Assembly: GCF_963921235.1 (NCBI RefSeq)
Contig: NC_086107.1
Location: 97,032,001-97,096,000, forward strand
Direction: 5' to 3'
Length of the DNA stretch: 64,000 nucleotides
DNA from: Mobula hypostoma
Taxonomy: Eukaryota
The position numbers were made by a program, and so were the translations under genes. Below are positions 29,928 to 47,965 of the stretch, one piece after another. Under the pieces are notes generated by a model that was not told the origin of the DNA, ran no database searches, and saw nothing but the letters and a program-made list of their open reading frames with translations. Positions within the stretch are counted from its first letter, which is position 1. Each line of letters begins with the position of its first letter.

Positions 29928-31275
29928 TGTTACGTATCCGCACGTCAAGAATGACAACGGAGTAGTATCATGAAACGTTTTGACTGAGTCATGCATACGC
30001 TGTGCAATTTAGAGCATGGGAACCACGAGCCGGGTCCACCAAGACAAAAGACACACGCAATCGACAGTCCGCGCCCTAAAGAGAGTGCCTCCTGCACGTG
30101 GGGGGCCCAGTCGATTCACCCGAGTGATCGATCCACTGCATGCATTCTTGCAGTCGATCTGGTATGGTACATCCCTCCCTCCTAAGAGAGAAACCGCAGA
30201 CGAAGGGAATGATGAATTGTCTATCCCGCTTGGGTGGGAGGCGCATCCTCAGGGACTACCACAGGGGGGCAGCGTTCCTCTCTGTGTCTTCCTGGTTAGC
30301 TGATGTTGGAGGGCAGTGGACGGTGAATCTCCTCTTCCCTAGATGAATTGTCGATTGGTTCATCTGCTGGGATGCTGGCTTCATCAGTAGGGGACGCTTC
30401 TGTAGCTTTCCTGGGACCCCCATCAGTTTGCTAGCATTTATGATCCAAGTTCATCCATCTGACAGCTCAAGCTCTGCTACATGACCATGACAATCCCGGA
30501 TGACAGCCGATAACCAGCTTTCTTCCCGTAAGAAGCTTGTGCAGATTTTGTCTCTGGCACCAAACATTCGCGGTCTGCCGTGCAGATCATTCTTTTGATT
30601 CATGACCTCTCGCTTGCTTCAAATTTTCTCTTGGCTGGCTGGCTGTACGAGATCTAATCTGGTGCGTATGGTGCACTTAAACATTGATTTGGCAGGTGAT
30701 GCACCTGAAAGTTCATTTGGGGTAACCTGGTAATACAAAAAGGAAATGGTTTAATTTTGTTATCAAGTCACACTGCTTTAGTTTGGAAAGGCCTCCTTTT
30801 ACATTTGCTCAGCCTGCTCCACCAGTCTACTTGATGCCCTATGATTTGGAGCCATTGTCAGGTGCTTCTTCTTCATCATCATTCTTCTTGATAAACTCCT
30901 CAAATTCTGCTCTTGTGAAGACCAGGCCACTCTCAGATATGATCATTTCCGGAATACAAAATGTAGCTTAATAATGGTAGCTGCCGAGGAACATGATGAA
31001 TTAGGAACATGCCTTTATCCGCTTTGCATGAGCATCCGCAATAACCAGAGGTATGTGTCCCCAGCACAGTGCAAAATGATTGATGTGGATGTGCTTCCAC
31101 AGGGAATCAGGCCAGGCCCATGTTTTAAGTTGGGGGGGGGTGCGTGTGCTTTGGCAATGTGTTTTGCATCTGCTGACAAATAGGGCAGATGTGCGCCAAG
31201 TTCTCAATATCAGTGTCCTTTTTAAGCCACCGCACACAGCTTCTTGCCAGAGCCTTTATTCTCACACTGGGGGGA
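29928..31275 (-). mobile_element. Gypsy element A, 3' part (integrase, PPT, 3' LTR)
   Basis: Minus strand RIKALARSCVRW..DIENL...CPICQ and W.WPD..WKHIHIN...LVIADAHAK; PPT AGGAGGGAGGGA at 30172-30183 abutting an LTR TGTACC...TAACA (30171-29928). Confidence 0.8.
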
Positions 31276-34200
31276 GTTGTGTATTTTAATATTTCAGTAA
31301 TATTTGAGTAATACTGTAAATATATTGTTTGATTAAGCATTTGTTTTTTATAAATAATTATGGATCACATAATAATTATGGGTCATATGTAAAAGTATGT
31401 GAATGGCATAAGTCATCCCACCACCACATCATATGTACGTGCCTTGCTTAAAGTAAAAATAAAACTAAGACTCACATTTACGGACTCTCTGTGTTTTCCT
31501 TTCAATTAGTTTTATGTTTTTGGAGTGGCAATAAGGAAGTTTTAAGTGAACCTGAGACTACCTGTTGAAGCACAGTGAGACATTTGAGTTAAAAAAAAAG
31601 CAGCATAACACGTGAGTCTTCAGGAAGGACTGAAATGGTCGAGTTAAAAAATAAAGTCAGAAAACAGATTAAATTCACAGGTTCATAAACAGTGAGTGCT
31701 AAGTGATAATAACCATAAATAAAAATAAAGCAGAAATGGCTGGCTACATAAGAAAGATAGATGCATTTGAATGCACAACAGATAATTTGATATTGTATGC
31801 TGAGCGAATTGAACAGTATTTTGAAGTAAATGAAACAGCCAATGAAAAATGAGTTCCAGCTTTGCTGAATGAATTGGGTTCAAAGACATACAGTTTGCTT
31901 AGCAGTTTAACTGCTCCAACCAAACCAGCCGAAATGAGCTTTGCTGTACCATGAAAGCAATGCAGGAACACTTAGAACCAAAACCATTGTTTCAAGATGA
32001 TGCCAGTGACCAATGCTGACATCCTGCAGGCAGTTCACAAAACTACTTATTTTACTTTTTTCTTTCCAATTTGATTCTATTGCTAAGTTGTGTATAATTA
32101 GAACCTGTGATTTACTTTTAATGGCGTGTTTTTAGGCCAATTGAGTAATCTGGTGCCTTGCTGTCTCTGAGGGAGTTTGGAGAGGTTGGGAGAAGAGTGC
32201 ACTGCCTGGTGGCCTGGACATCAGCACGAGCCCAAGATTAACTCCATTACTTCTCTCTGATTGAGGCGTTGACCAAGGTTGAAGTCAACAAAGATGGGAG
32301 CGGAGGACGGGCTGGTGTTTGGCGCCATTTGCCTGCGTTTGACCAGTCTTCCTCTCCCGCTAGCGGCTGTCAGAGGAAAGCGCAACAGTCTTGGGTTCCA
32401 CATTGAAAGGACTGATCAGCAAGGCTCCTGGCTGTGGACTTGTTTTGAGGGACTTTGACGTTCAAGTTGCATGTGTTACTGGATTCTGGTTACTCTTTTG
32501 TTTTGCTGATTTTGAGCAGTTTGATTGAGGCAAATGGTGAGGACTGGGCAGAACGCTTTAGATTTCAAAGCAGAATCAAAAAGAAGGGTGTATATTTCAA
32601 TGTACGTGGCTAAACTGAAGAAATTGTTTGAGCATTGTCAGTTCAGTGATGGACTGAATGATACACTGAGAGATCATTTAGTTTGTGGAATCTTGCAAGA
32701 AAGCATTCAAAAATGGCTCCTAACTGAAGCACAACTTACATCTAAAACAGCAGTTAACATTGATGTATCAATGGGAACAGCAGACAGAAGTGCAATTGAG
32801 TTGCAGTCAGGAATTAAAATAAGTGTGAGCAAAATTGCAGTATCCAAACAGAAATCAGCCTGGCCAAACAAATTGTGTTACTGTTGTGGCAGGAGCTCAC
32901 ATACGCCAGACCAATACAAGCTTAAAGGTGAAACTTGCAGAAATGCAACAAAGCAGGACACGAACAAAGATCACGTTCGGCAGAGAGTAATAAATGGACT
33001 GCACTGGGAAGAGAAAAAGATAAAAAGTCAAGTTGCAGTTTCAAAAAGAGCACTAATCTGCATACTGTTGATGAAAAATGTGATAATGATAAGAGTGACA
33101 CAGAACTGAACAGCTTTCAGATTTACAATATGATTACTAACAAGAGACAAGCAACACGCCTTACACTAGAAGTAAGTGACAAATTAATTGTAAATCTGTG
33201 GGAATGACATTTGTAACAGCGAAATACAACAACCAACAAGCCACATTGGGTTTATATGTAGTAAAAACAGGAGGACCAGCATTGTGGGAATGTGATTATA
33301 TGAGATAACTACAATTTGATTGGAGATCCATCCAGTATTTACATGCCACACCCCCTGCAATAGAGTCAGCTAAAAGCAAATGAAAAAATATACTGGATGA
33401 TATCACAGCACCACAGCAGTTTCCAAGAATGGCATTAGGAAAACTCGAGGGAGGAATAGAGTTAAATGAAAGTGCCACACACAAGTTTTACAAAACCTGT
33501 CTGGTTCCTTATACATCCATGATAAAGTAGCTAGTGAGCTGCATAGAGGCTGAAGGAATTCTTTCCAAGGTTGAGTGGAGAACGTGGACAATGCCAGTGG
33601 TCCCAGCAGCCTAAAATAATGGGTCTTTTGGGATCTGTGTTGATTTTAAGGTCAAAATCAACCCCGTACTGAAAGTAGATCAATACCCTCTGCCTAAGAT
33701 TGATGATATCTTTGCAAATCTTTTCCAGAGGAAAGTGGACTTAGCTGAGGCCTACCTACAGATGGAGATGGAAGAAGAGGCCAAAGGGTTTCTCATCAAA
33801 AGCACACGCAATGGGCTTTATTGCTATAATAGACTAATTTCTGGAGAAGCATCTGCGCCTGCACTCTGGCAGAAAGCTATAGACCAGGTGCTGAAAGGCT
33901 GCCTGGACACTCAGTGTTACCTGGATGACATCATTGTTATCAGTAAGGATGACAAGGAACATCTCCAAAATCTCAAGACAGTGTTAAAAAGGTTGGAAGG
34001 TTATGGGCTCAGAGCATGACATGACGAATGTGAATTCTTTAAACCAAGCATCACTTACTGTGGTCACACCATTGACGCACAAGAATTTACACAAGTGTGC
34101 TGAGAGAATTCAAGCAGTGGTGGATGCTCCAAGGTTAAATAACGTGTCCACAGTTGTGGTTCTTTTTAGGATTTGTCAGTTACTATAACAGGTCCCTGCT

Positions 34201-35088
34201 AAACGTGGCTACTGTGTTCCATCCCCTGAACTCATTACTACAGATTGGGAAGAAATGGCAATGGGTGAAGCAGTGTGAGGTAGCTTTCCAAAAGGTGAAG
34301 GAAATGGTGACATTAAACACAGTACTCACACATTCTGATCTACATTGCCCAGTGAAGCTTGCCTGTGATGTCTCGCCTTGTAGCACAGGTGCAGTCACAT
34401 TACATGTTATGAATGATGGAAGTGAATGCCCCACAGCCTTTACATCACCTTCTCTTATTGCTGCAGAGAAAAATTACACACAAATTGACCGAGAGACCTT
34501 GAGTCTTGTTTGGGGTGTAAAACGCTTCAACCAGTACTTGTACAGGAGAGAGTTTACCCTCATTACTGATCATCAACCACTAGTGTCCATTTTCAACCCA
34601 CAGAAGGGAGTCCCACTAACAGCAGCAGCACGAATACAGAGATGGGCGTTGCTTCTTGAAGGACACAATCACAAGATTGAATTCCAAAGGACGACTAATC
34701 ATGAAAATGCTGGTGGATTGTCAAATTTGCCCTCGGAGAATGAAGTGCCAAAAAAATTTACAGAAGTGGATAATCCTCTTGAATTATTCTCCCTAATACA
34801 GATCAGAAGCCTCCCTATTACGGCAGAAAGGAAATGAGAAAAGACCTCACACTGTCTCAGGTCTTCATGGCCACCCAGTCTGGCTGGAATGTGCAAAAGA
34901 ATTCCCAGTTCCTCTATTTTTACCAGCATCAGATGAACTTGACCTAGATGGGGGTTGCCTTATGTGGTGTTTGAGAGTTGTACCAGCCAGGCTGAAAGCT
35001 AAAATGCTGGAGGAGCGACAGGTCAGTTCTCCAGGTATGGTCAAAATGAAAGTGTTGGCTCAAAGCTTTATCTGGTGGCCTGGTTGAT
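31276..35088 (+). mobile_element. Gypsy element B (5' LTR, gag, RT, RNase H, start of integrase), 3'-truncated and degenerate
   Basis: LTR 31276-31525 homologous to 41987-42237; gag ATG at 31736; YLDD near 33918; RNase H LACD...AEKNYTQIDRETL...LITDHQPL; ends at GMVKMKVLAQSFIWWPG; unrelated insert about 31995-32560. Confidence 0.9.
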
Positions 35089-36048
35089 GCAGGACAACAC
35101 TGATGACATCTTTCTAATCCACTTTCTGTCTGGCAAATAAGGCTGTTGGCCTCCTCTGACCACATGTGGAACAGGTTCCTCTGGTGAGCCACATCTGCTG
35201 TAAAGACACCACGTACACCCATCCTCTCTCCAGTGTAGCCGTGGAACACAAATTCCGTTGTTATAATTTTGGAATCAGACGTTAGGATTATTCCCTGGTA
35301 TCCAACTCAAACTTCATCAGCTGGTTGTCCACTGGAGTGTAACCAAGTACGGAGGCTGGTTTTGGTGGCTCATGTCATGGGCTTGGATAATACTGCTCAC
35401 TTCTTCACTCTGGCTGTCTCCTTGCATCAAGCTGATGGTTGAATTCTGCCATAAGGCTTCTCTTGACTGCCTCCCAGTGGTGAGCTATGGAACATGCCTG
35501 TCCCAGGACAAATGGTGCTTTTTGGATAGGAGGCTCTCGTACATCTTCCCATCTTGGACTCCAACAATCAACACTTGGATAAGCATCGGTTCCTTGAACT
35601 TACTCAGGGGAATATTTTTGTACTTGCATTCCTGCGCTGCTAGGACCAGTCTTGTGCTGAAATCATCTACATTCTCACTGGAATCTGTCACAGCTGAAGA
35701 GTACCATAAAGGCACTGCCCTACATCCTCCAAATGTTGGCCAAAGCCTAAAACGCATCTGTCAGTTGCAATTTGATCTGTAGGGGCAGAGCATCAAAGTA
35801 TTTCTACCCAAGTTCTCCCACGTGCATGTAGAGCAGCTTGAGTTTCACTGCTTCCTCCAGCTTTGCTACCGCTGGTGAAATTGGTAGGAGTTCGACGTAG
35901 TCCAGGAAGTTTCTTTACCATTGCAGCCAAGTTCCACCAGTCAGTTTTGCCATAGCTGCGGTCCAAAATTAATTGTGTGTTAGACTAGAGAGGCCATTCT
36001 TGTTTTGATCCTCATCGCCAGAATGTTAATATAATTTGATGCAGTACA
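35089..36048 (-). mobile_element. Gypsy element A, 5' part (PBS, gag)
   Basis: PBS-like TGGCGATGAGG at 36020-36010; gag-like ENVDDFSTRLVLAAQECKY...MLIQVLIVGVQD. Confidence 0.75.
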
Positions 36049-39700: not shown

Positions 39701-40262
39701 GGGTCATTAAAATCTCTCACCAATACAACCCTATTATTCTTACAACCATGAGCAGTTTCTCTACATGTTTGTTCCTGAAGTTCCCGATGACTGTTGGGGA
39801 GCCTATACCAGCAGTCCTGCTCGAGTGACCCTCACCTTCTTATTTTTGAGTTCCACCCATCTCCCGAGAATGTCATCTCTAAGCACTGCTGTCGTGACCT
39901 CCTTTATCAAAAAGGCTACACCCTCTCCACGCTTAACCGTACCCCTGTCATGCCTGTAGCATCTGTATCCTGGAATAATGAACTGCCAATCCTGCCCTTC
40001 TCTCAGTTGTGTTTCTGCTGTGGCTACAACATCCCACTCCTTGGAGCCAATCCACCCTCTGACTTCGCCTCCCTTACCTGTTAAACTCATACATTGAAAT
40101 AAATGCAGTTTAATCGGTATTCCTTTCTCTGTCCTTACCTTGTCCCTGGCTATCCGGATTACTAAACTTGCTTTCTCTGGTTGTTGTTTTACCCCTTGAC
40201 TTGCTCCTGCTCAGAGTTCAACCCTCTTTGCCAATCTAGTTTAAACCCTCCTGTATTACATT

Positions 40263-40685: not shown

Positions 40686-41427
40686 TGTATTACATTAGCA
40701 AATATCTCCGCAGGGATATCGGTCCCTCTCTGGGTCAAGTGCAACCTGTCCTTCTTGTACAGGTCATCTCTACCTCAAATGAGATCCCAATAGTCCAAGA
40801 ACCTGAATTCCTGTCCCCTACTCCAACTCATTGGACTTATCCAGCTACTTCTGACCTCACTAGTATGTAGCACCAGGAGTAATCTGGAGATGACTGTCTT
40901 TGAGGTCCTGTTTCTTACCTAACTCCCTACACTTATTCTGTAGGACTTCATCCCTAGTTTTACCCACTTTTTATGTACCAACAGCCAGAGGCTGTTCATT
41001 TTCTTCACTCTCCTGGAGAATTTTCTGCAGCCACTGAAATAACTTCTCTTGAATGGATTAACTTCACTCTGATTCCACAACCTACTGAGTCACTTTCAAG
41101 GACTTTACACCTTATGTTCAGTATTATGTGTTATTATTATTATTTGTATATTGGTTGTCTGTTTTTGTGTGTAGTTTTCCAATGTTTCTATTGTAATTAA
41201 CTGTTCTTCTGTGAATGCCTGCAAGAAAATGAATCTCAGGGTTGTATATGGTGACATGTATGCACTTCAATAATAAAGTTACTTTGAACTTTAACGCAAC
41301 CTTGACCCTGGCACCTGGGAGACAACACATCATCGTGGCATCCCTTCTGCAGCCATAGAATCTCCTCTCTGTCCTGTCCATCGAGTCTCCCATCACTATC
41401 ACCCTATCTGACTGCATCCTCCCCCAA

Positions 41428-41617
41428 CATACAAAGAGCATGTCGGGCAGATAAAAATAAACGGACTGCACAGGGAAGAGCAAAAGCTAAAAAGTCAAGC
41501 TGCAGCTTCAAAAAGAGCACCAATCTGCAAGCTGTTGATGAGAAATCTGATAACGTTGAGAGTCACACAGGACTGTGTAGCTTTGAAACTTACAGTGTGA
41601 AGGTTAGCAATAGACAT
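41428..41617 (+). mobile_element. Isolated Gypsy gag fragment
   Basis: Matches 43128-43322 and 32955-33150. Confidence 0.85.
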
Positions 41618-41986
41618 GACTACCTCTGTGAACCCATGAAAGAACATACCCCTCAACAGTTTCCAAAGGCTATACCTGTTAGTGAGGGGAATGGCCGTAA
41701 GGAGCCCAGTACTGACTGCCTACTCCCCTTAATTTCCCTATCCAAAGCCTATACCTTGGGTGTGAGCACCTCAGTAAAAGTTTCATCTATGAGGTTCTTT
41801 GCCACCTGCATAGTCCTAAGTATATCCAAACTGAGCTCCAGTTCCTTGATCTGGTCTGTCAGGAGTTGCAGGTGGGTGCTCTTCCGGTAGATCCAGTCAT
41901 CAGGGAGACCAAGAGGTTTTGTGACTCGCCACAACTTGCAGGAAGAACCTGCCATCCCAACTACATTGAATCAAGCAAAGAAAAAG

Positions 41987-44889
41987 TGTATTTAATATTT
42001 CAATAATACTTGAGTAATCTTGTATGTATATATACATCTTGGTTGATTAAGCATTGTTGTTCATTTAAATGATTAATAATGGGTTATATGCAAAAATAAA
42101 TTAATTGCATATGTCATCACACTACCACATGATATGTGTGTGCCTCTCTAAAAGTAAACTCGAACTAGACACATGTTCCTGGTCTTTTGTGTCTTCATTT
42201 GAACTAATTTAATGTTTTGAAACTGCAAAACATAACATTGGTGACGACGTATTTTTAAAATGAACCTGACACGGCTACCAGCCTGTTAAAGTGCAGTGAA
42301 ACGTTTGAAATAAAATAAAAGGCAGTGAGGAACAGGCGAGTTACCAAAACATGTGCTCTTTGGAAGGGAAGATGTGATTGATTTTTAAACAAGGCTGTAA
42401 GAGGAAATTAGGGTTCATAAAGAGTACCAGCTGATAATAATCTTTAAAAAAAACAGAAATGGCGGGCTGCATCGGAAAGATTGTTGAGTTTGATTGCATG
42501 ACAGGTAATTGGCTTGTGTATACTGAGCTATTGGAACAATGTTTTGAAGCAAATGAAATAGCCAATGAGAAGCAAATGCCAATTTTGCTGAGTTCATTGG
42601 GTTTAAAGGCATGCAGGCTTTCAATTTGACTGCTCCAACCAAACCATCAGATATAAGCTTTGCTGATATTGTAAAAGTGATACAGGAACTCTTAGAACCA
42701 AAGTCGTTGTTGATTGCAGATCACTTTAGGTTTCTTAAGCAGAATCAAAAACGAGTGGATTCCATTTCAACATACATGGCTGAATTGAGGAGATTGTCTA
42801 AGCACTGTCAGTTTGGTATTAGGCTTAATGATACACAAAGAGCTTGTTTCGTTTGTGGAATCTTAAAAGAAAGCATTCAAAAATGGCTCCTAACTGAAGC
42901 ACAGCTTACATTTAGAAGAGCAGTGGAAATTGCTGTTTCAATGGAAACTGTAGACCGAGATGCAATTGACGTAATCAGGAATGAAAGTGGGCATGAACAA
43001 AATTGCATTGTCTAAAAAGAAACTAGTCTTGCCAAACAAGTTGTGTTACCATTGTGGCAGGGGCTCACACTCACCAAACAAATGCAGATTTAAAGGTGAA
43101 ACTTGCAGATAATGCAACAAAGTAGGTCACATACAAAGAGCATGTCAGGCAAACAAAAATAAATGGAATGCACAGAGAAGAGAAAAGCATAAAAAAAAGT
43201 CAAGTTGCAGTTTCAAAAAGAGCACCAATCTGCATGCTGTTGATGAAAAATCCGATAATGAGGAGAGTGACACAGGACTGCACAGCCTTAAAATTTACAG
43301 TGTGAAAATTAACAATAGACAAGCAATATAGCTTACGCCAAAAGTGATTGGCAAATCAATTAAAATGGAATTGGACACTGGTTAGTCTGTTCATGTAACT
43401 CCAGTAAATGAGTTTGAACGCCATTTCAGAGATACTAACCTGAGGCTTACAGATATCCAACTAAGAACTTGTGCTGGAGAAAAGACCACTCCAATGAGAA
43501 TGACATTCATAAGAGTGAAATACAGTGACCAACAAGCCACATTGAGCTTGTATGTGGTGAAAACAGGAGGACCAGCATTGTGGGGTCATAATTGGCTGAG
43601 ACAACTGCAACGTGATTAGAGATCCTTCCACCACTTACATGCCACATGCCCTGCAATGAAGTCAACTGAAAGTGAATTAAGAAAGGTACTGGATGATTCC
43701 ACAACTGTCTCCACGGTGAACACTATGAACCTTAGGTCAACAGAGGACAAACAGGTGTTGGTGCCAGCCTCTGTGCCTCTGTTTGGAGAGCACATTGAAC
43801 CAAGGAAGGAACATGGGGCTCAGAGGAATTGTGAAAATGGTGAAAGCAGTGGTCTGGCTACAGCAGTTTTTGTAGGCAACATATCTGAGAAAGCTTCTGA
43901 TATGTTAATCAGAACATATCACAAGCTTTCTCAGAAATGTTAATCAGGTAGTTACTTGTGAAATGTGGCTTGGATTTAAGCTGGAAGAGAGTTCAAGGAG
44001 CTTCAGGAAAGTTGCAAGCATTCAGCTTTTATGACTATAAAGAACCAGAGTCTACTTTACGTGCGTTAAGGTTATTGCATGAATTTCAAGTGGGAGACAA
44101 AAAGTTGCTTGTAAAAGTAGATGCCCTGCTGGATGAATGGAAGGCCGAAAAGAAAGGAGTCAATGGAGATACAAAAACAGGGAATTCATCAGCTAATGCT
44201 GTGATTGAGGGAATGAAAAGGAGAGATCGGATCATAAAGGGAGCAATAGAAGGATTAATGAGAGAATACTCTAGTGAACTAAATGCATCTTCCCACGATC
44301 AAGATGCACAAACTAGAAGAAGGAAAAGGAAGAAGAAGGAAGGTGACTACTGCTATCAGAGCCACTTCCTGCAGCCCATAGTCAACTGCAATCACCATGG
44401 AGGAGGCCCCAGACCTGAGATTGTTTCACAGCCATAAGTCTCATCTGCCAAGCAGAGTGACCTCCCTTGTCAGGAAAGATATTATCCCACAAGAGTAGGA
44501 AAGCCTCCACGGTGATGAAATCTTTCAGTCTGAATGGGACAATTTAAAATTTACTATGCTGTGGATGTCTGTTTATAGCAGCTTCATTATATAATATATT
44601 GTGTCTCTAGTTGAGGTGCATTCTATATTGAGTTGGAGCTTACAGCTAAGCAGGGAAGAGTGTTGTGTATTTAATTTTTCAGTAATATTTGACTAATCTT
44701 GTACATGGATTGTTTGATTAAGATTTATGTTCATTTAATAATTAATTACATAAAATATTTAAAAATATGTTAATTGCATACATCATCATGCTACCACATG
44801 ATACATGTGTGCCTCGCTAAAAGTAAACTTGAACTAGACTCGTATTCCCAGTCTCTCATGTCATCTGAATTAATTTTTGAAGCTACAAA
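41987..44889 (+). mobile_element. Gypsy element C: two LTRs, gag and protease, with pol replaced by RBM25 sequence
   Basis: 5' LTR 41987-42237 ending ACA plus PBS TGGTGACGAC; gag ATG at 42459 with CCHC knuckles; protease MELDTG; PPT AAGCAGGGAAGAG then 3' LTR 44661 to about 44889. Confidence 0.92.
43755..44342 (+). pseudogene. RBM25: Intronless RBM25 fragment (RRM region) captured in a Gypsy element
   Basis: VFVGNISEKASDMLIR...KCGLDLSWKRVQGASGKLQAFSFYDYKEPESTLRALRLLHEFQVGDKKLLVKVDA...KRRDRIIKGAIEGLMREYSSELNA matches the RBM25 N-terminal RRM as I recall it; 35-bp duplication and TAG at 43949 disrupt the frame. Confidence 0.92.
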
Positions 44890-44949
44890 GCCTTACCTGT
44901 TGTTATTTGAAGATCCAGAACTCTGGAAGTCAGCCCAGTAACACAGCTG

Positions 44950-45510
44950 GCGTCACGTAACCGTAGTGGTTAGCACAATATTATTGCTGCTCAGGGGTGC
45001 TCTGCAGGTCAGAGTTCAATCCTGGCGCTGTTCCGTAAGGAGTCTCTGTACGTCCTCCCCATGGAATGTTTGGGTTTTCCCCGGGTGCTCCGGTTTACAC
45101 TTACAGTTCGAAAACATACCGGGTAGGTTAACTGGCCTGTGATTAAGTTAGGGTTAATCGGGGTTGTGTGGGCATGTGGCCAAGTGGTTAAGGCATTGGG
45201 CTAGTGACCTGAAGGTCGTGAGTTCGAGCCCCAGCAGAGGCAACGTGTTGTGTCCTTGAGCAAGGCACTTAGCACACGTTGCTCTGCGATGACACTGGTG
45301 CCAAGCTGTATGGGTCCTAATGCCCTTCCCTTGGACAACATTGGTGTCGTGGAGAGGGGAAATTTGCAGCATGGGCAATTGCTAGTCTTCCATACAACCT
45401 TGCCCAGGCCTGCACCCTGGAGAGTGAAGACTTCCCAGGCGAAGATCCATGGCCTTGCAAGACTAATGGATGCCTTTATTCGGGGTTGGGGGGTCACTGG
45501 GGTAGCGTAG
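44950..45510 (+). mobile_element. tRNA-SINE containing a second nested tRNA-SINE (about 45167-45478)
   Basis: Outer head ccgtagtggttagc...gagttcaatcc; inner head gtggccaagtggttaagg...gagttcgagcc; tcggggtt repeated at both flanks of the inner element. Confidence 0.8.
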
Positions 45511-47224: not shown

Positions 47225-47505
47225 TATTTATTGAGCTACAGTAAATAGACAGAATAGGCCACTCCGGCCCTTCGAGCCGCTTGCCCAGCAACCCCCGATT
47301 TAACCCGAGCCTAATCACGAGACAATTTTCAAAGCCCGATTAACCTACCAACCGGTACGTCTTTGGACTGTGGGAGGAAACTGGAGCACCTCGAGGAAAC
47401 CCATGCAGTCGCGGGAAGAATGTACAAACTCCTTATGGACGGCAGTGGGAATTGAACCCGGGTCACCGGAACTGTAAAGCGTTGTGCTACCCACTACGCT
47501 ACTGT
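47225..47505 (-). mobile_element. tRNA-headed SINE
   Basis: Homolog of 9480-9747. Confidence 0.8.
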
Positions 47506-47965
47506 GGGAAGAAGGAGGAGAGGAAGCATAATGGATGGCAGCACTCTTTTAGCTATAAACATACATGAGGTTCCCTGACTCCCTACATCTTGTAGGAGGA
47601 ACTTATCTGCCATCCTGTCTTCACTAAATCAAGTACTAAGGATCGCCAGCCTTACCTATAGTTATTTGATGATCCAGAACTCTAGGAGACAGTCCAACAA
47701 CTTAACTGGGTGTCACGGCACCGTAGTGGTTGGCGCAACGCGATTACAGCTCAGAGCATTCTGGAGTTTGGAGTTCAGCTCTGGCACCGTCTGTAAGCAG
47801 TCTCTGTACGTCCTCCCGATAATTCCAAATATATTATAAATAGCCAAAGATGACATAATTTCCAAGGGTTCATTGTGAACCGACCAGTAAGTGTAACATA
47901 CAGCAGGCAGGAAACTGTGCCAGCAGAAACATAAAGTAAATATAAGTGTAAATGCAGACATTGTA

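What the first reader, a model, noticed from the sequence alone, without database searches (positions are those of the whole stretch)
41987..44889. Gypsy LTR retrotransposon carrying a captured, apparently spliced RBM25 mRNA segment in place of pol
Seen: LTR-PBS-gag-protease, then about 640 bp of non-Gypsy sequence, then the Gypsy 3' region (PEIVSQP, YPTRVGKPP), PPT and LTR. The sister element at 31276-35088 has RT/RNaseH at this position. Known: 43755-44342 translates to the RRM region of splicing regulator RBM25, which spans several exons in vertebrates, yet it is continuous here. The 5' junction is in frame with pol (STESELRKVLDD-STTV...KQ-VLVP). Inference: template switching onto co-packaged host mRNA during reverse transcription, analogous to retroviral oncogene capture. 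The cis elements needed for mobilisation (LTRs, PBS, PPT) are recognisable, so this could be a non-autonomous family spreading an RRM domain. This copy is disabled.
Basis: partly seen in the sequence, partly recalled or inferred. Interest (0 to 1): 0.82.

Follow-up and report, generated by a model that had tools for sequence, protein, structure and literature searches.

The report
Retrotransposon family carrying captured RBM25 fragment
This is an old, dead copy of a jumping gene whose copying enzymes were replaced by a spliced piece of the host's RBM25 splicing-factor message, and the hybrid then multiplied to very many copies in at least three related genomes.

Summary
Window 41987-44887 is one discrete LTR-element insertion. 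An uninterrupted paralog of the split flanking repeat lies at 47563-47840. It carries LTR, gag, protease and the PR-RT linker, all homologous to the autonomous sister at 31276-35147. Then come about 650 bp (43698-44347) of RBM25 coding sequence, a short pol C-terminal tail, a polypurine tract and the 3' LTR. The RBM25 piece matches a shark RBM25 best (72-79% identity). It includes a 16-residue insertion seen only in the three shark-type sequences. It runs uninterrupted across five positions where RBM25 gene fragments of other fish, or shark isoforms, show exon ends, so it came from spliced mRNA. It has no poly(A) and lacks the 3' part of the mRNA. Both junctions are in frame, and the 5' junction lies in about 15 bases that resemble both parents. 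New here: laying contigs of four public runs shows a high-copy family. More than 100 contigs cover each variant site, and 12 displayed contigs, 77-90% alike, bridge the 5' junction in three organism labels. This particular insertion is shared by all three. Closest known cases are LTR-mediated retroposition (Tan 2016), maize Bs1 and ETn/MusD. The kind is known; the copy number is unusual.

The parts
41903..41986 (+). Left flank: part of an older repeat that the element split. AAG at 41984-41986 is a possible half of a 3-bp target duplication.
   Evidence: Aligns at 77% mean column identity with the uninterrupted paralog 47563-47645.
41987..42227 (+). 5' LTR (241 bp), starting TG and ending CA.
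   Evidence: blastn to the 3' LTR E 2e-39. 82% identity over 220 aligned columns, K2P 0.21. Aligned with the sister LTR.
42239..42250 (+). Candidate primer-binding site (starts TGG), 11 nt after the LTR end. Not verified.
   Evidence: Sequence read. Not conserved in the sister element.
42459..43330 (+). gag remnant with two CCHC zinc knuckles (about 43044-43160). Broken by frameshifts and stops.
   Evidence: Translation. 79% to the sister element. tblastn of Gypsy polyproteins, e.g. P0237 residues 56-179 and 204-435.
43332..43697 (+). Aspartic protease (D-T-G at 43374-43382, followed by a stop) and the PR-RT linker. This is the last stretch that is only Gypsy.
   Evidence: The sister element aligns through 43697.
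43698..43712 (+). 5' junction zone: 15 nt (S-T-T-V-S) that resemble both parents.
   Evidence: 11 of 15 nt equal to the sister element (counted by eye). Gypsy relative P0232 has A-A-T-V-F here. Shark RBM25 P0376 has A-T-T-V-S.
43698..44347 (+). Captured RBM25 cDNA fragment, matching P0376 residues 12-224, with the whole RRM. Exon-exon junctions are continuous at 43754|43755, 43960|43961, 44017|44018, 44167|44168 and 44344|44345.
   Evidence: for identity. for exon ends. RRM_1 at P0376 residues 72-140.
43902..43936 (+). 35-bp inverted duplication that shifts the frame. Many other copies lack it.
   Evidence: Self inverted match 43878-43941. Joints 'skips 35' in 22, 31 and 28 contigs of X1, X5 and X10 for the best-supported placement (table 5).
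44348..44512 (+). Remnant of the pol (integrase) C-terminal tail, in frame with the RBM25 part, with one internal stop, ending at a double stop at 44513-44518. The origin of 44348-44413 is less certain.
   Evidence: C-termini of P0253 (926-955 of 960) and P0287 (1330-1377 of 1383) align to 44414-44509 and 44369-44506. The C-terminal motif occurs in 4 of 150 Gypsy representatives.
44649..44660 (+). Polypurine tract directly before the 3' LTR.
   Evidence: Sequence. The LTR start at 44661 is fixed by loose ends with unrelated sequence before it (table 7).
44661..44887 (+). 3' LTR (227 bp).
   Evidence: Family depth ends and single-copy depth begins at about 44882 (table 2).
44888..45080 (+). Right flank: continuation of the split older repeat. 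AAG at 44888-44890.
   Evidence: 85% mean column identity with 47648-47840. Contigs of X1, X5 and X10 run from the LTR into this flank.
31276..35147 (+). Sister element of the same or a sibling family, with RT, RNase H and the start of integrase. It is cut off after the integrase zinc finger.

Best explanation
A Ty3/Gypsy-type LTR retrotransposon of a cartilaginous-fish-like host picked up about 650 nt of spliced host RBM25 mRNA during reverse transcription.

Proposed course of events:
- While copying its own RNA from the 3' end (U3, polypurine tract, pol tail), the reverse transcriptase switched onto a co-packaged RBM25 mRNA.
- It copied that mRNA from just inside the exon after the one ending KKEE back to the ...ATTVS region.
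- It then switched back onto the element's RNA at the PR-RT linker, within about 15 nt that resemble both templates.

The product kept the LTRs, leader, gag, protease, pol tail and polypurine tract, but lost RT, RNase H and integrase. It behaved as a non-autonomous element copied in trans by autonomous relatives such as the sister at 31276-35147. It multiplied to hundreds or thousands of copies before the three sampled organism labels diverged. The window copy is one old, fixed, decayed insertion.

Shown: the anatomy, the RBM25 origin, the absence of introns, the single insertion, and the shared 5' junction in many diverged copies.
Inferred: the template switches, mobilisation in trans, and the order of events.

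The broader statement (RNA-mediated capture followed by amplification as an LTR element) I put at about 0.85. The two-switch version is scored in the confidence field.
For: RBM25 identity:
- 243 proteins at E <= 0.001 of 1238 candidates, best 2.8e-45.
- Top hit overall is P0121, a shark RBM25-like protein, E 5.7e-55, 79%.
- The alignment runs from P0376 residue 12 to 224 with only a 4-residue gap in each half. The first of these gaps disappears against isoform P0375.

Spliced origin:
- 3 of 3 hits are single-exon ORFs that start at VLVP and end at RQLLA.
- 19 of 21 proteins fetched are single-exon ORFs bounded AFGF...NG.
- P0153, P0121 and P0375 read into an intron after KK[DE]E, while mRNA-type P0376, P0122 and P0125 go on with DDI.
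- Shark isoforms X1 and X2 differ by 12 nt exactly at KQ|VLVP, and the window has the X2 form.
- All five positions are continuous in the window.

Not LINE-type: there is no poly(A), and the piece is internal to the mRNA (residues 12-224 of a protein of about 800-860 residues).

Gypsy flanks:
- Sister homology runs to 43697-43712.
- The pol-tail motif sits at the extreme C-terminus of Gypsy polyproteins, which have PR-RT-RH-IN order.

Reading frame: both junctions are in frame. The absolute frames are equal, and the 35-bp duplication accounts for the shift inside the RBM25 part.

One insertion: a paralogous uninterrupted site exists.

Family:
- 23414, 25920 and 28283 contigs of X1, X5 and X10 lie on 43400-45100 at >= 80% likeness.
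- 12 of the 25 displayed records bridge the 5' junction zone with 31 or more letters on both sides (records 2, 3, 4, 9, 10, 11, 12, 14, 15, 20, 21, 22), at about 77-90% identity to the window.
- DNA contigs such as records 5, 11, 13, 21 and 23 span exon junctions.
- Summed depth in the RBM25 part is thousands, against 5, 11 and 18 in the unique flank bin.
Against: - The template switches are not observable. The parental nucleotide sequences (host RBM25 mRNA, autonomous element pol tail) were not available, so microsimilarity is judged from a 79%-similar sister and from protein alignments.
- The RBM25 homology ends within 0-3 nt of an exon-exon boundary (44344|44345). For a random switch point this is roughly a 3% coincidence by my own estimate. 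It fits a splice-made junction better.
- The Gypsy origin of 44348-44512 rests on weak matches (E 0.003 in a small search space, 0.13 against the window). No counterpart exists in the window.
- The LTRs are only 82% alike, the target duplication is at most 3 bp, and the PBS is unverified. The cis elements are therefore 'recognisable' rather than proven.
- Different flanks for different RBM25-bearing copies were not shown, because the contigs are too short.
- Summed contig depth is not a copy number, as the tool itself warns.
- Exon ends come from other species' gene fragments, not from the host gene.
Confidence: 0.55

Rival explanations
1. Splice-assisted transduction of the retroviral-oncogene type. 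A Gypsy copy sat in sense orientation in the RBM25 intron after the exon ending KKEE. An RBM25 transcript spliced from that exon's donor into a cryptic acceptor in the element's pol tail and ended in the element's 3' LTR. This chimeric RNA, which carries U3-R, was co-packaged. A single illegitimate template switch (the 5' junction) then joined it to gag-protease. Amplification followed as in the best explanation.
For: The RBM25 homology ends at 44344-44347, which is 0-3 nt from the exon end marked by P0153, P0121 and P0375 against P0376, P0122 and P0125. Only one non-homologous event is needed. The 5' junction, by contrast, lies inside exon sequence with microsimilarity. That is what this model expects for the recombination end.
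Against: The end of homology lies in a low-complexity K/E/R-rich stretch, where the alignment can slip by a codon. One further residue (D) matches the next exon. No acceptor signal can be checked, because the autonomous element's sequence upstream of the junction is not in the window. No Gypsy copy in an RBM25 intron has been seen.
Confidence: 0.25
2. DNA-level origin. An RBM25 processed pseudogene (LINE-made) or a stray cDNA fragment was joined into a Gypsy copy by insertion plus deletions, or by end-joining or gap repair. The composite, still having LTRs, PBS and PPT, was then transcribed and amplified.
For: The final structure would look the same. LINE remains are present nearby (weak Exo_endo_phos hit, E 0.0039).
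Against: There is no poly(A), no 3' end of the mRNA and no target duplication at the RBM25 piece. The model needs an insertion plus two precise deletions that happen to leave both junctions in frame and to remove exactly RT-RH-IN. The 5' junction lies in a stretch similar in both parents, which is the signature reported for RT template switches (Tan et al. 2016, abstract and section 6 read).
Confidence: 0.1
3. The RBM25-bearing unit did not spread by retrotransposition. The many copies arose by segmental or tandem duplication of one chimeric locus, or the high depth comes from something other than chimeric elements.
For: Different flanks of RBM25-bearing copies were not demonstrated. Depth sums are not copy numbers (notes).
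Against: - Copies are 10-23% diverged from the window copy and number more than 100 contigs per site in each of three DNA runs.
- The window copy is a discrete insertion with LTR ends inside another repeat.
- LTR starts are preceded by unrelated sequence in 286-339 contigs per DNA run (agreement 0.34-0.35, table 7), as expected for dispersed insertions.
- No second copy lies within this 64-kb window.
Confidence: 0.05

Closest known systems
LTR-mediated retroposition in animals (Tan et al. 2016, Genome Res, PMC5131818; abstract, section 6 and found passages read)
   Same: An intron-free fragment of a host mRNA sits inside a discontinuous LTR retrotransposon. The mRNA is 3'-truncated, with no poly(A) or target duplication around the retrocopy. 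There is short similarity at a fusion point, and the in-frame orientation follows the element's own transcription.
   Different: Their cases are young and occur at one or a few loci. Secondary retroposition gave a few identical copies. Here the chimera is old, shared by three organism labels, and present in more than 100 contigs per site. It also retains gag-protease in frame with the captured piece.
Maize Bs1 and other plant LTR elements with captured gene fragments (passages of PMC13317346, PMC2774510 and PMC5131818 read)
   Same: An LTR retroelement whose internal region holds spliced host gene fragments. [quoted passage not shown] It has no RT of its own and depends on other elements.
   Different: Bs1 has 1-5 copies and three donor genes. 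In maize, 425 elements came from at least 189 captures, so there are few copies per capture. Here a single donor fragment sits in a high-copy vertebrate family.
Mouse ETn/MusD pair (passages of PMC12283350 read; the statement that ETn's interior is unrelated non-coding sequence is recalled)
   Same: A non-autonomous LTR element that keeps the cis elements of an autonomous partner, lacks its pol, and is copied by the partner's machinery.
   Different: The ETn interior is not a recognisable host coding fragment. No autonomous partner with a matching 3' tail was found in this window.
Acutely transforming retroviruses (Swain and Coffin 1992 model; recalled, seen only as a reference in PMC5131818)
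   Same: Part of pol/env is replaced by spliced host exons fused in frame to gag-side sequence. The product is replication-defective and needs a helper. The junctions arise by splicing or read-through plus RT recombination.
   Different: There is no evidence here of any selective effect of the captured domain. This is a germ-line retrotransposon, not an infectious virus.

Membership tests
Ty3/Gypsy (Metaviridae) LTR retrotransposon | Two direct long terminal repeats with TG...CA ends bounding one insertion | tested here: met
   LTR pair at E 2e-39 and 82% identity. Ends are TG/CA. A paralogous uninterrupted target exists.
Ty3/Gypsy (Metaviridae) LTR retrotransposon | Target-site duplication of 4-6 bp | tested here: inconclusive
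   Only AAG (3 bp) is shared by both flanks. The element is old.
Ty3/Gypsy (Metaviridae) LTR retrotransposon | tRNA primer-binding site next to the 5' LTR and a polypurine tract next to the 3' LTR | tested here: inconclusive
   A polypurine run at 44649-44660 abuts the LTR start fixed. The PBS candidate lies 11 nt from the LTR end and was not compared with any tRNA.
Ty3/Gypsy (Metaviridae) LTR retrotransposon | gag with zinc knuckle, aspartic protease, then RT, RNase H and integrase in that order | tested here: not met
   gag, zinc knuckles and the D-T-G protease are present. RT, RNase H and the integrase core are absent from this copy. They are present in that order in the sister element and in relatives. 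This copy is therefore a non-autonomous derivative, not a complete member.
LTR-mediated retrocopy (chimeric retrocopy made by RT template switching) | Host-gene stretch lacks the parental introns | tested here: met
   Five exon ends known from other fish gene fragments or shark isoforms are continuous here. The host gene itself was not available.
LTR-mediated retrocopy (chimeric retrocopy made by RT template switching) | Flanked on both sides by parts of one LTR retrotransposon, with no poly(A) or target duplication at the retrocopy | tested here: met
   The 3' side rests on weak protein matches.
LTR-mediated retrocopy (chimeric retrocopy made by RT template switching) | Microsimilarity between the two templates at the switch points | tested here: inconclusive
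   5' side: 15 nt resemble both a 79%-similar sister element and shark RBM25 protein. 3' side: no parental Gypsy sequence was available to compare.
Non-autonomous LTR element amplified in trans (ETn/MusD-like relation) | Many copies with the same internal junctions | tested here: met
   12 of 25 displayed records bridge the 5' junction, and more than 100 contigs cover each site, in three organism labels. The 3' junction could not be scored.
Non-autonomous LTR element amplified in trans (ETn/MusD-like relation) | Copies lie at different genomic sites, and an autonomous partner shares the LTR, PBS and PPT | not testable with these tools
   No genome is held and the contigs are too short. The sister element shares LTR and gag at 68-80% only.
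RBM25 (host splicing regulator gene) | RRM plus ER-rich region plus C-terminal PWI domain in an intron-containing gene | tested here: not met
   Only residues 12-224 (RRM and the following linker) are present, without introns, with stops and a frameshift. It is a fragment, not a gene.

The most novel reading that the evidence does not exclude
The founder element may have encoded one continuous Gag-protease-RRM-pol-tail protein, since both junctions are in frame. The captured RRM would then have been kept as a working part while the family spread, for example by binding the element's own or host RNA. In that case this would be a non-autonomous retrotransposon that succeeded because of a stolen splicing-factor domain. 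In addition, the hundreds to thousands of RBM25-like copies could feed small RNAs that act on the host RBM25 message.
Probability: 0.1. Interest if true: 0.85.

Novelty: new member of a known kind. Interest (0 to 1): 0.6.

Why it matters
It gives a clear vertebrate example of an LTR retrotransposon that captured several spliced host exons and then spread them in very many copies. In animals this has been documented mostly for single or few-copy loci. Such a family scatters an intact-domain coding fragment (a complete RRM) through the genome. That is raw material for exon shuffling, a source of false 'RBM25-like' gene models, and possibly of small RNAs matching an essential splicing regulator. 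The shared junctions and the lineage-specific RBM25 exon extension make the capture datable across related species. The near-coincidence of the 3' junction with an exon end offers a test between splice-assisted and purely recombinational capture.

Tried and rejected
- Own-genome search: no genome is held. The host RBM25 gene and a copy census could not be examined.
- Pfam on the window's own ORFs gave no RRM or gag hit, because the RRM is split by the frameshift. The PDB search gave only a weak PABP RRM match (E 0.0064).
- The 5'-junction ORF used as a protein query found 3 proteins, all real RBM25 exons and no chimeric protein.
- Earlier findings of this scan: nothing by sequence, place or words that bears on this.
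- Expression: no RNA holder is listed. X18 is only guessed to be RNA. It holds family contigs, including two that bridge the 5' junction (records 14, 15), and has no cover in the unique flank bin. I draw no conclusion on transcription from this.
- 3' junction in other copies: the tool skips 44311-44342 as repeat, and cover is low over 44312-44411, so bridging could not be scored. The printed consensus of loose ends before 44413 agrees with the window's own preceding letters at 24 of 29 positions (by eye, allowing the 1-base insertion that 67 X1 contigs show). Homology therefore seems to continue at least to 44384.
- Counterpart of the pol tail in the window: none.
- Retained intron reading: I first read TMN...KQ before VLVP as a retained intron end. 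I rejected this after P0375 and P0376 showed it is part of shark mRNAs.
- LINE-type retrocopy: rejected (no poly(A), internal fragment).
- Minus-strand gag/protease after 35100, suspected by eye: not supported by tblastn at E < 1e-5.
- Literature: no paper links RBM25 with retrotransposon capture. Searches were 'RBM25'+'retrotransposon' (29 papers held both terms, 15 listed; none of the listed titles or abstract openings concerns capture), 'RNA-binding protein 25'+'transposable' (2 papers, unrelated) and shark+Gypsy+non-autonomous+LTR (9 papers, reviews). Repbase-type libraries could not be consulted.
Full report
**Observation**

- Two direct repeats, 41987-42227 and 44661-44887, match each other (blastn E 2e-39). 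A global alignment gives 181 of 220 aligned columns identical, 28 gap columns, K2P 0.21.
- Between them lies a decayed gag with two CCHC knuckles, a protease with D-T-G, and the PR-RT linker (translation).
- These parts are about 79% identical in DNA to the element at 31276-35147 (42716-43361 vs 32548-33189, E 9e-158; 43495-43703 vs 33199-33407).
- That sister element continues with reverse transcriptase (PF00078, E 7.5e-13) and RNase H (PF17917, E 8.6e-27). A 1324-residue Gypsy polyprotein (P0237) lies along it from residue 6 to 974.

**The insert is RBM25**

The ORF 43952-44434 finds 243 proteins at E <= 0.001 among 1238 candidates of 283-2000 residues. Every listed row with a descriptive gene name is RBM25 (best E 2.8e-45). 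Among proteins of similar length, the top hit is a 220-residue 'RNA-binding protein 25-like isoform X1' of the shark Heptranchias perlo (P0121, E 5.7e-55, 79%). Its cluster holds isoform X2 (P0375) and an unnamed 268-residue Logan protein (P0376).

tblastn places P0376 residues 12-224 on window 43698-44347. The first half is 59% identical and the second 72%. The only gaps are two of 4 residues. The first disappears against isoform X2. The whole RRM (P0376 residues 72-140, RRM_1 E 3.4e-10) lies inside.

The window shares with these three shark-type sequences a 16-residue insertion before VLVP. It also shares the variable stretch after 'GVNG'. The bony-vertebrate RBM25s that I fetched lack both. 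So the donor was a shark-type RBM25.

**Spliced origin**

No genome is held for the window, so I used gene fragments of other fish that the protein searches returned.
- VLVP and RQLLA ends: all 3 of 3 hits to the first ORF are single-exon ORFs from genomic contigs. They start with unrelated residues, then ...Q|VLVP, and end ...RQLLA|VS.
- AFGF and NG ends: of 21 short proteins fetched, 19 are single-exon ORFs. They have unrelated residues, then AFGF...NG (or NR/NV in two of them), then V and unrelated residues.
- KK[DE]E end: P0153, P0121 and P0375 read on into non-RBM25 sequence after KK[DE]E. The mRNA-type sequences P0376, P0122 and P0125 continue with DDI.
- KQ|VLVP: the two shark isoforms differ by 12 nt exactly there, and the window has the short form.

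The corresponding five positions are 43754|55, 43960|61, 44017|18, 44167|68 and 44344|45 (coordinates). All are continuous in the window. The inference that the host gene has the same introns rests on conservation of intron positions, not on the host gene itself.

**Junctions**

5' junction:
- The sister element aligns cleanly to 43697 and then more loosely.
- The closest Gypsy relative, P0232, still matches through K-V-L-D-x-x-x-T-V.
- Shark RBM25 matches from A-T-T-V-S onwards.
- So 43698-43712 resembles both parents (11 of 15 nt equal to the sister, by eye), and the cross-over cannot be placed more finely.

3' junction:
- RBM25 homology ends at 44344-44347.
- From 44369 or 44414, the extreme C-termini of two Gypsy polyproteins align (P0287 residues 1330-1377 of 1383; P0253 residues 926-955 of 960, 15 of 32 identical).
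- The motif they share occurs in 4 of 150 representatives. It ends 11-13 residues before the C-terminus in three of them and 89 residues before it in the fourth.
- These matches are weak (E 0.003-0.13). The window holds no other copy of this tail.

Reading frame: the protease-linker frame equals the RBM25 frame. The RBM25 frame after the 35-bp duplication equals the pol-tail frame. So both junctions were in frame, which has a chance of 1 in 9.

There is no poly(A) and no direct repeat around the RBM25 piece.

**One insertion, old and shared**

- Left flank 41903-41986 and right flank 44888-45080 align with one uninterrupted repeat copy at 47563-47840 (77% and 85% mean column identity). So 41987-44887 went in as one unit.
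- Only AAG is repeated at the two ends.
- Contigs run from the 3' LTR into the unique flank in X1 (record 7, no differences), X5 (record 25, 9 other letters and 4 gaps over 282 positions) and X10 (depth 18 over 44863-44936, with seven listed differences). The same insertion therefore exists in three organism labels.
- An LTR divergence of K2P 0.21, against about 3% between labels A and B at this locus, puts the insertion several times deeper than their split. This is a rough inference.

**A high-copy family**

Words of 43400-44700 occur in runs of seven organism labels from nine studies. I laid two DNA-type runs (X1, X5), one run of unknown type (X10) and one guessed to be RNA (X18) on 43400-45100 at 80% likeness.
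- 23414, 25920 and 28283 contigs lie on the stretch in X1, X5 and X10.
- Of the 25 displayed records, 12 bridge the 5' junction zone with at least 31 letters on each side. They are about 77-90% identical to the window. Three are from X1, four from X10, three from X5 and two from X18.
- DNA contigs such as records 5, 11, 13, 21 and 23 cross exon junctions, so they are intron-free DNA copies.
- Summed depth in the RBM25 bins is 2.9-24.9 thousand in X1, against 5 in the unique flank bin. The corresponding figures are 3.9-33.0 thousand vs 11 in X5, and 8.6-79.6 thousand vs 18 in X10. The tool warns that this is not a copy number. I take it only as 'hundreds to thousands'.
- The 35-bp inverted duplication at 43902-43936 is skipped by 22, 31 and 28 contigs of X1, X5 and X10 at the best-supported placement, so many other copies lack it.
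- The 3' junction could not be scored, because 44311-44342 is skipped as repeat.

**Mechanism**

The anatomy fits RNA-level capture. The internal fragment is spliced and 3'-truncated, lies between discontinuous parts of one element, and has template similarity at one junction. This is what Tan et al. 2016 describe (abstract and section 6 read).
- I prefer two template switches (0.55).
- A splice-assisted 3' junction plus one switch (0.25) is favoured by the near-coincidence with an exon end. It is weakened by the low-complexity alignment there.
- A DNA-level origin (0.10) needs more events and does not explain the two in-frame junctions.
- After capture, the element lacked RT, RNase H and integrase. 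It must therefore have been copied by relatives such as the sister element. This is inferred, not shown.

**Comparison and novelty**

- Capture of gene fragments by LTR elements is known. Examples are maize Bs1 (1-5 copies, same switch points), 425 maize elements from at least 189 captures (passages read), and animal cases at one or a few loci.
- Non-autonomous LTR elements that outnumber their helpers are also known, such as ETn/MusD.
- I found no paper on RBM25 capture.
- This is therefore a new member of a known kind. It is notable for copy number, for five spliced junctions with a complete RRM, for two in-frame junctions, and for its presence in several related genomes.

**Caveats**

- The host gene, the autonomous partner's tail and full copies of other family members were not available.
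- The PBS and target duplication are unproven.
- Transcription is undetermined.

Noticed in passing
window 41427-41616: A 190-bp fragment of the same family's gag-protease spacer lies alone 370 bp upstream of the element's 5' LTR. It is 84.5% identical to 43129-43321 and 80% to the sister element. It sits among minus-strand ORFs that looked LINE-like by eye, though Pfam found nothing in them at E <= 0.01.
   Followed up: no
window 30445-31325 (minus strand): The integrase part of another Gypsy copy (P0237 residues 989-1218; weak Integrase_H2C2 hit, E 0.0045) abuts the sister element's 5' LTR in the opposite orientation. The sister element itself stops at the integrase zinc finger (P0237 residue 974, at 35084). 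The two pieces overlap by about 12 residues in homologous position, so they look like two copies rather than one inverted element.
   Followed up: partly
window 43878-43941: A 64-bp self-complementary stretch was created by a 35-bp inverted duplication inside the RRM-coding part. Many other copies of the family lack the 35 bases.
   Followed up: yes
window 47329-47840 and 44888-45200: Two copies of an older repeat whose right part is tRNA-like/SINE-like. One was split by the element and the other is intact. Very high contig depth from about 44996 onward shows it is itself a high-copy repeat.
   Followed up: partly
proteins P0121, P0375, P0376 (not in the window): Shark RBM25 sequences carry a 16-residue in-frame insertion between the usual ...ATT and VLVP. 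They also have an alternative 12-nt (CFTQ) extension at the next acceptor. Neither is seen in the bony-vertebrate RBM25s fetched. This looks like a lineage-specific exon extension of RBM25.
   Followed up: partly
window 39806-40210 (minus strand): An ORF with a weak endonuclease/exonuclease/phosphatase match (E 0.0039, below Pfam's cut-off). It is probably a LINE endonuclease remnant.
   Followed up: no
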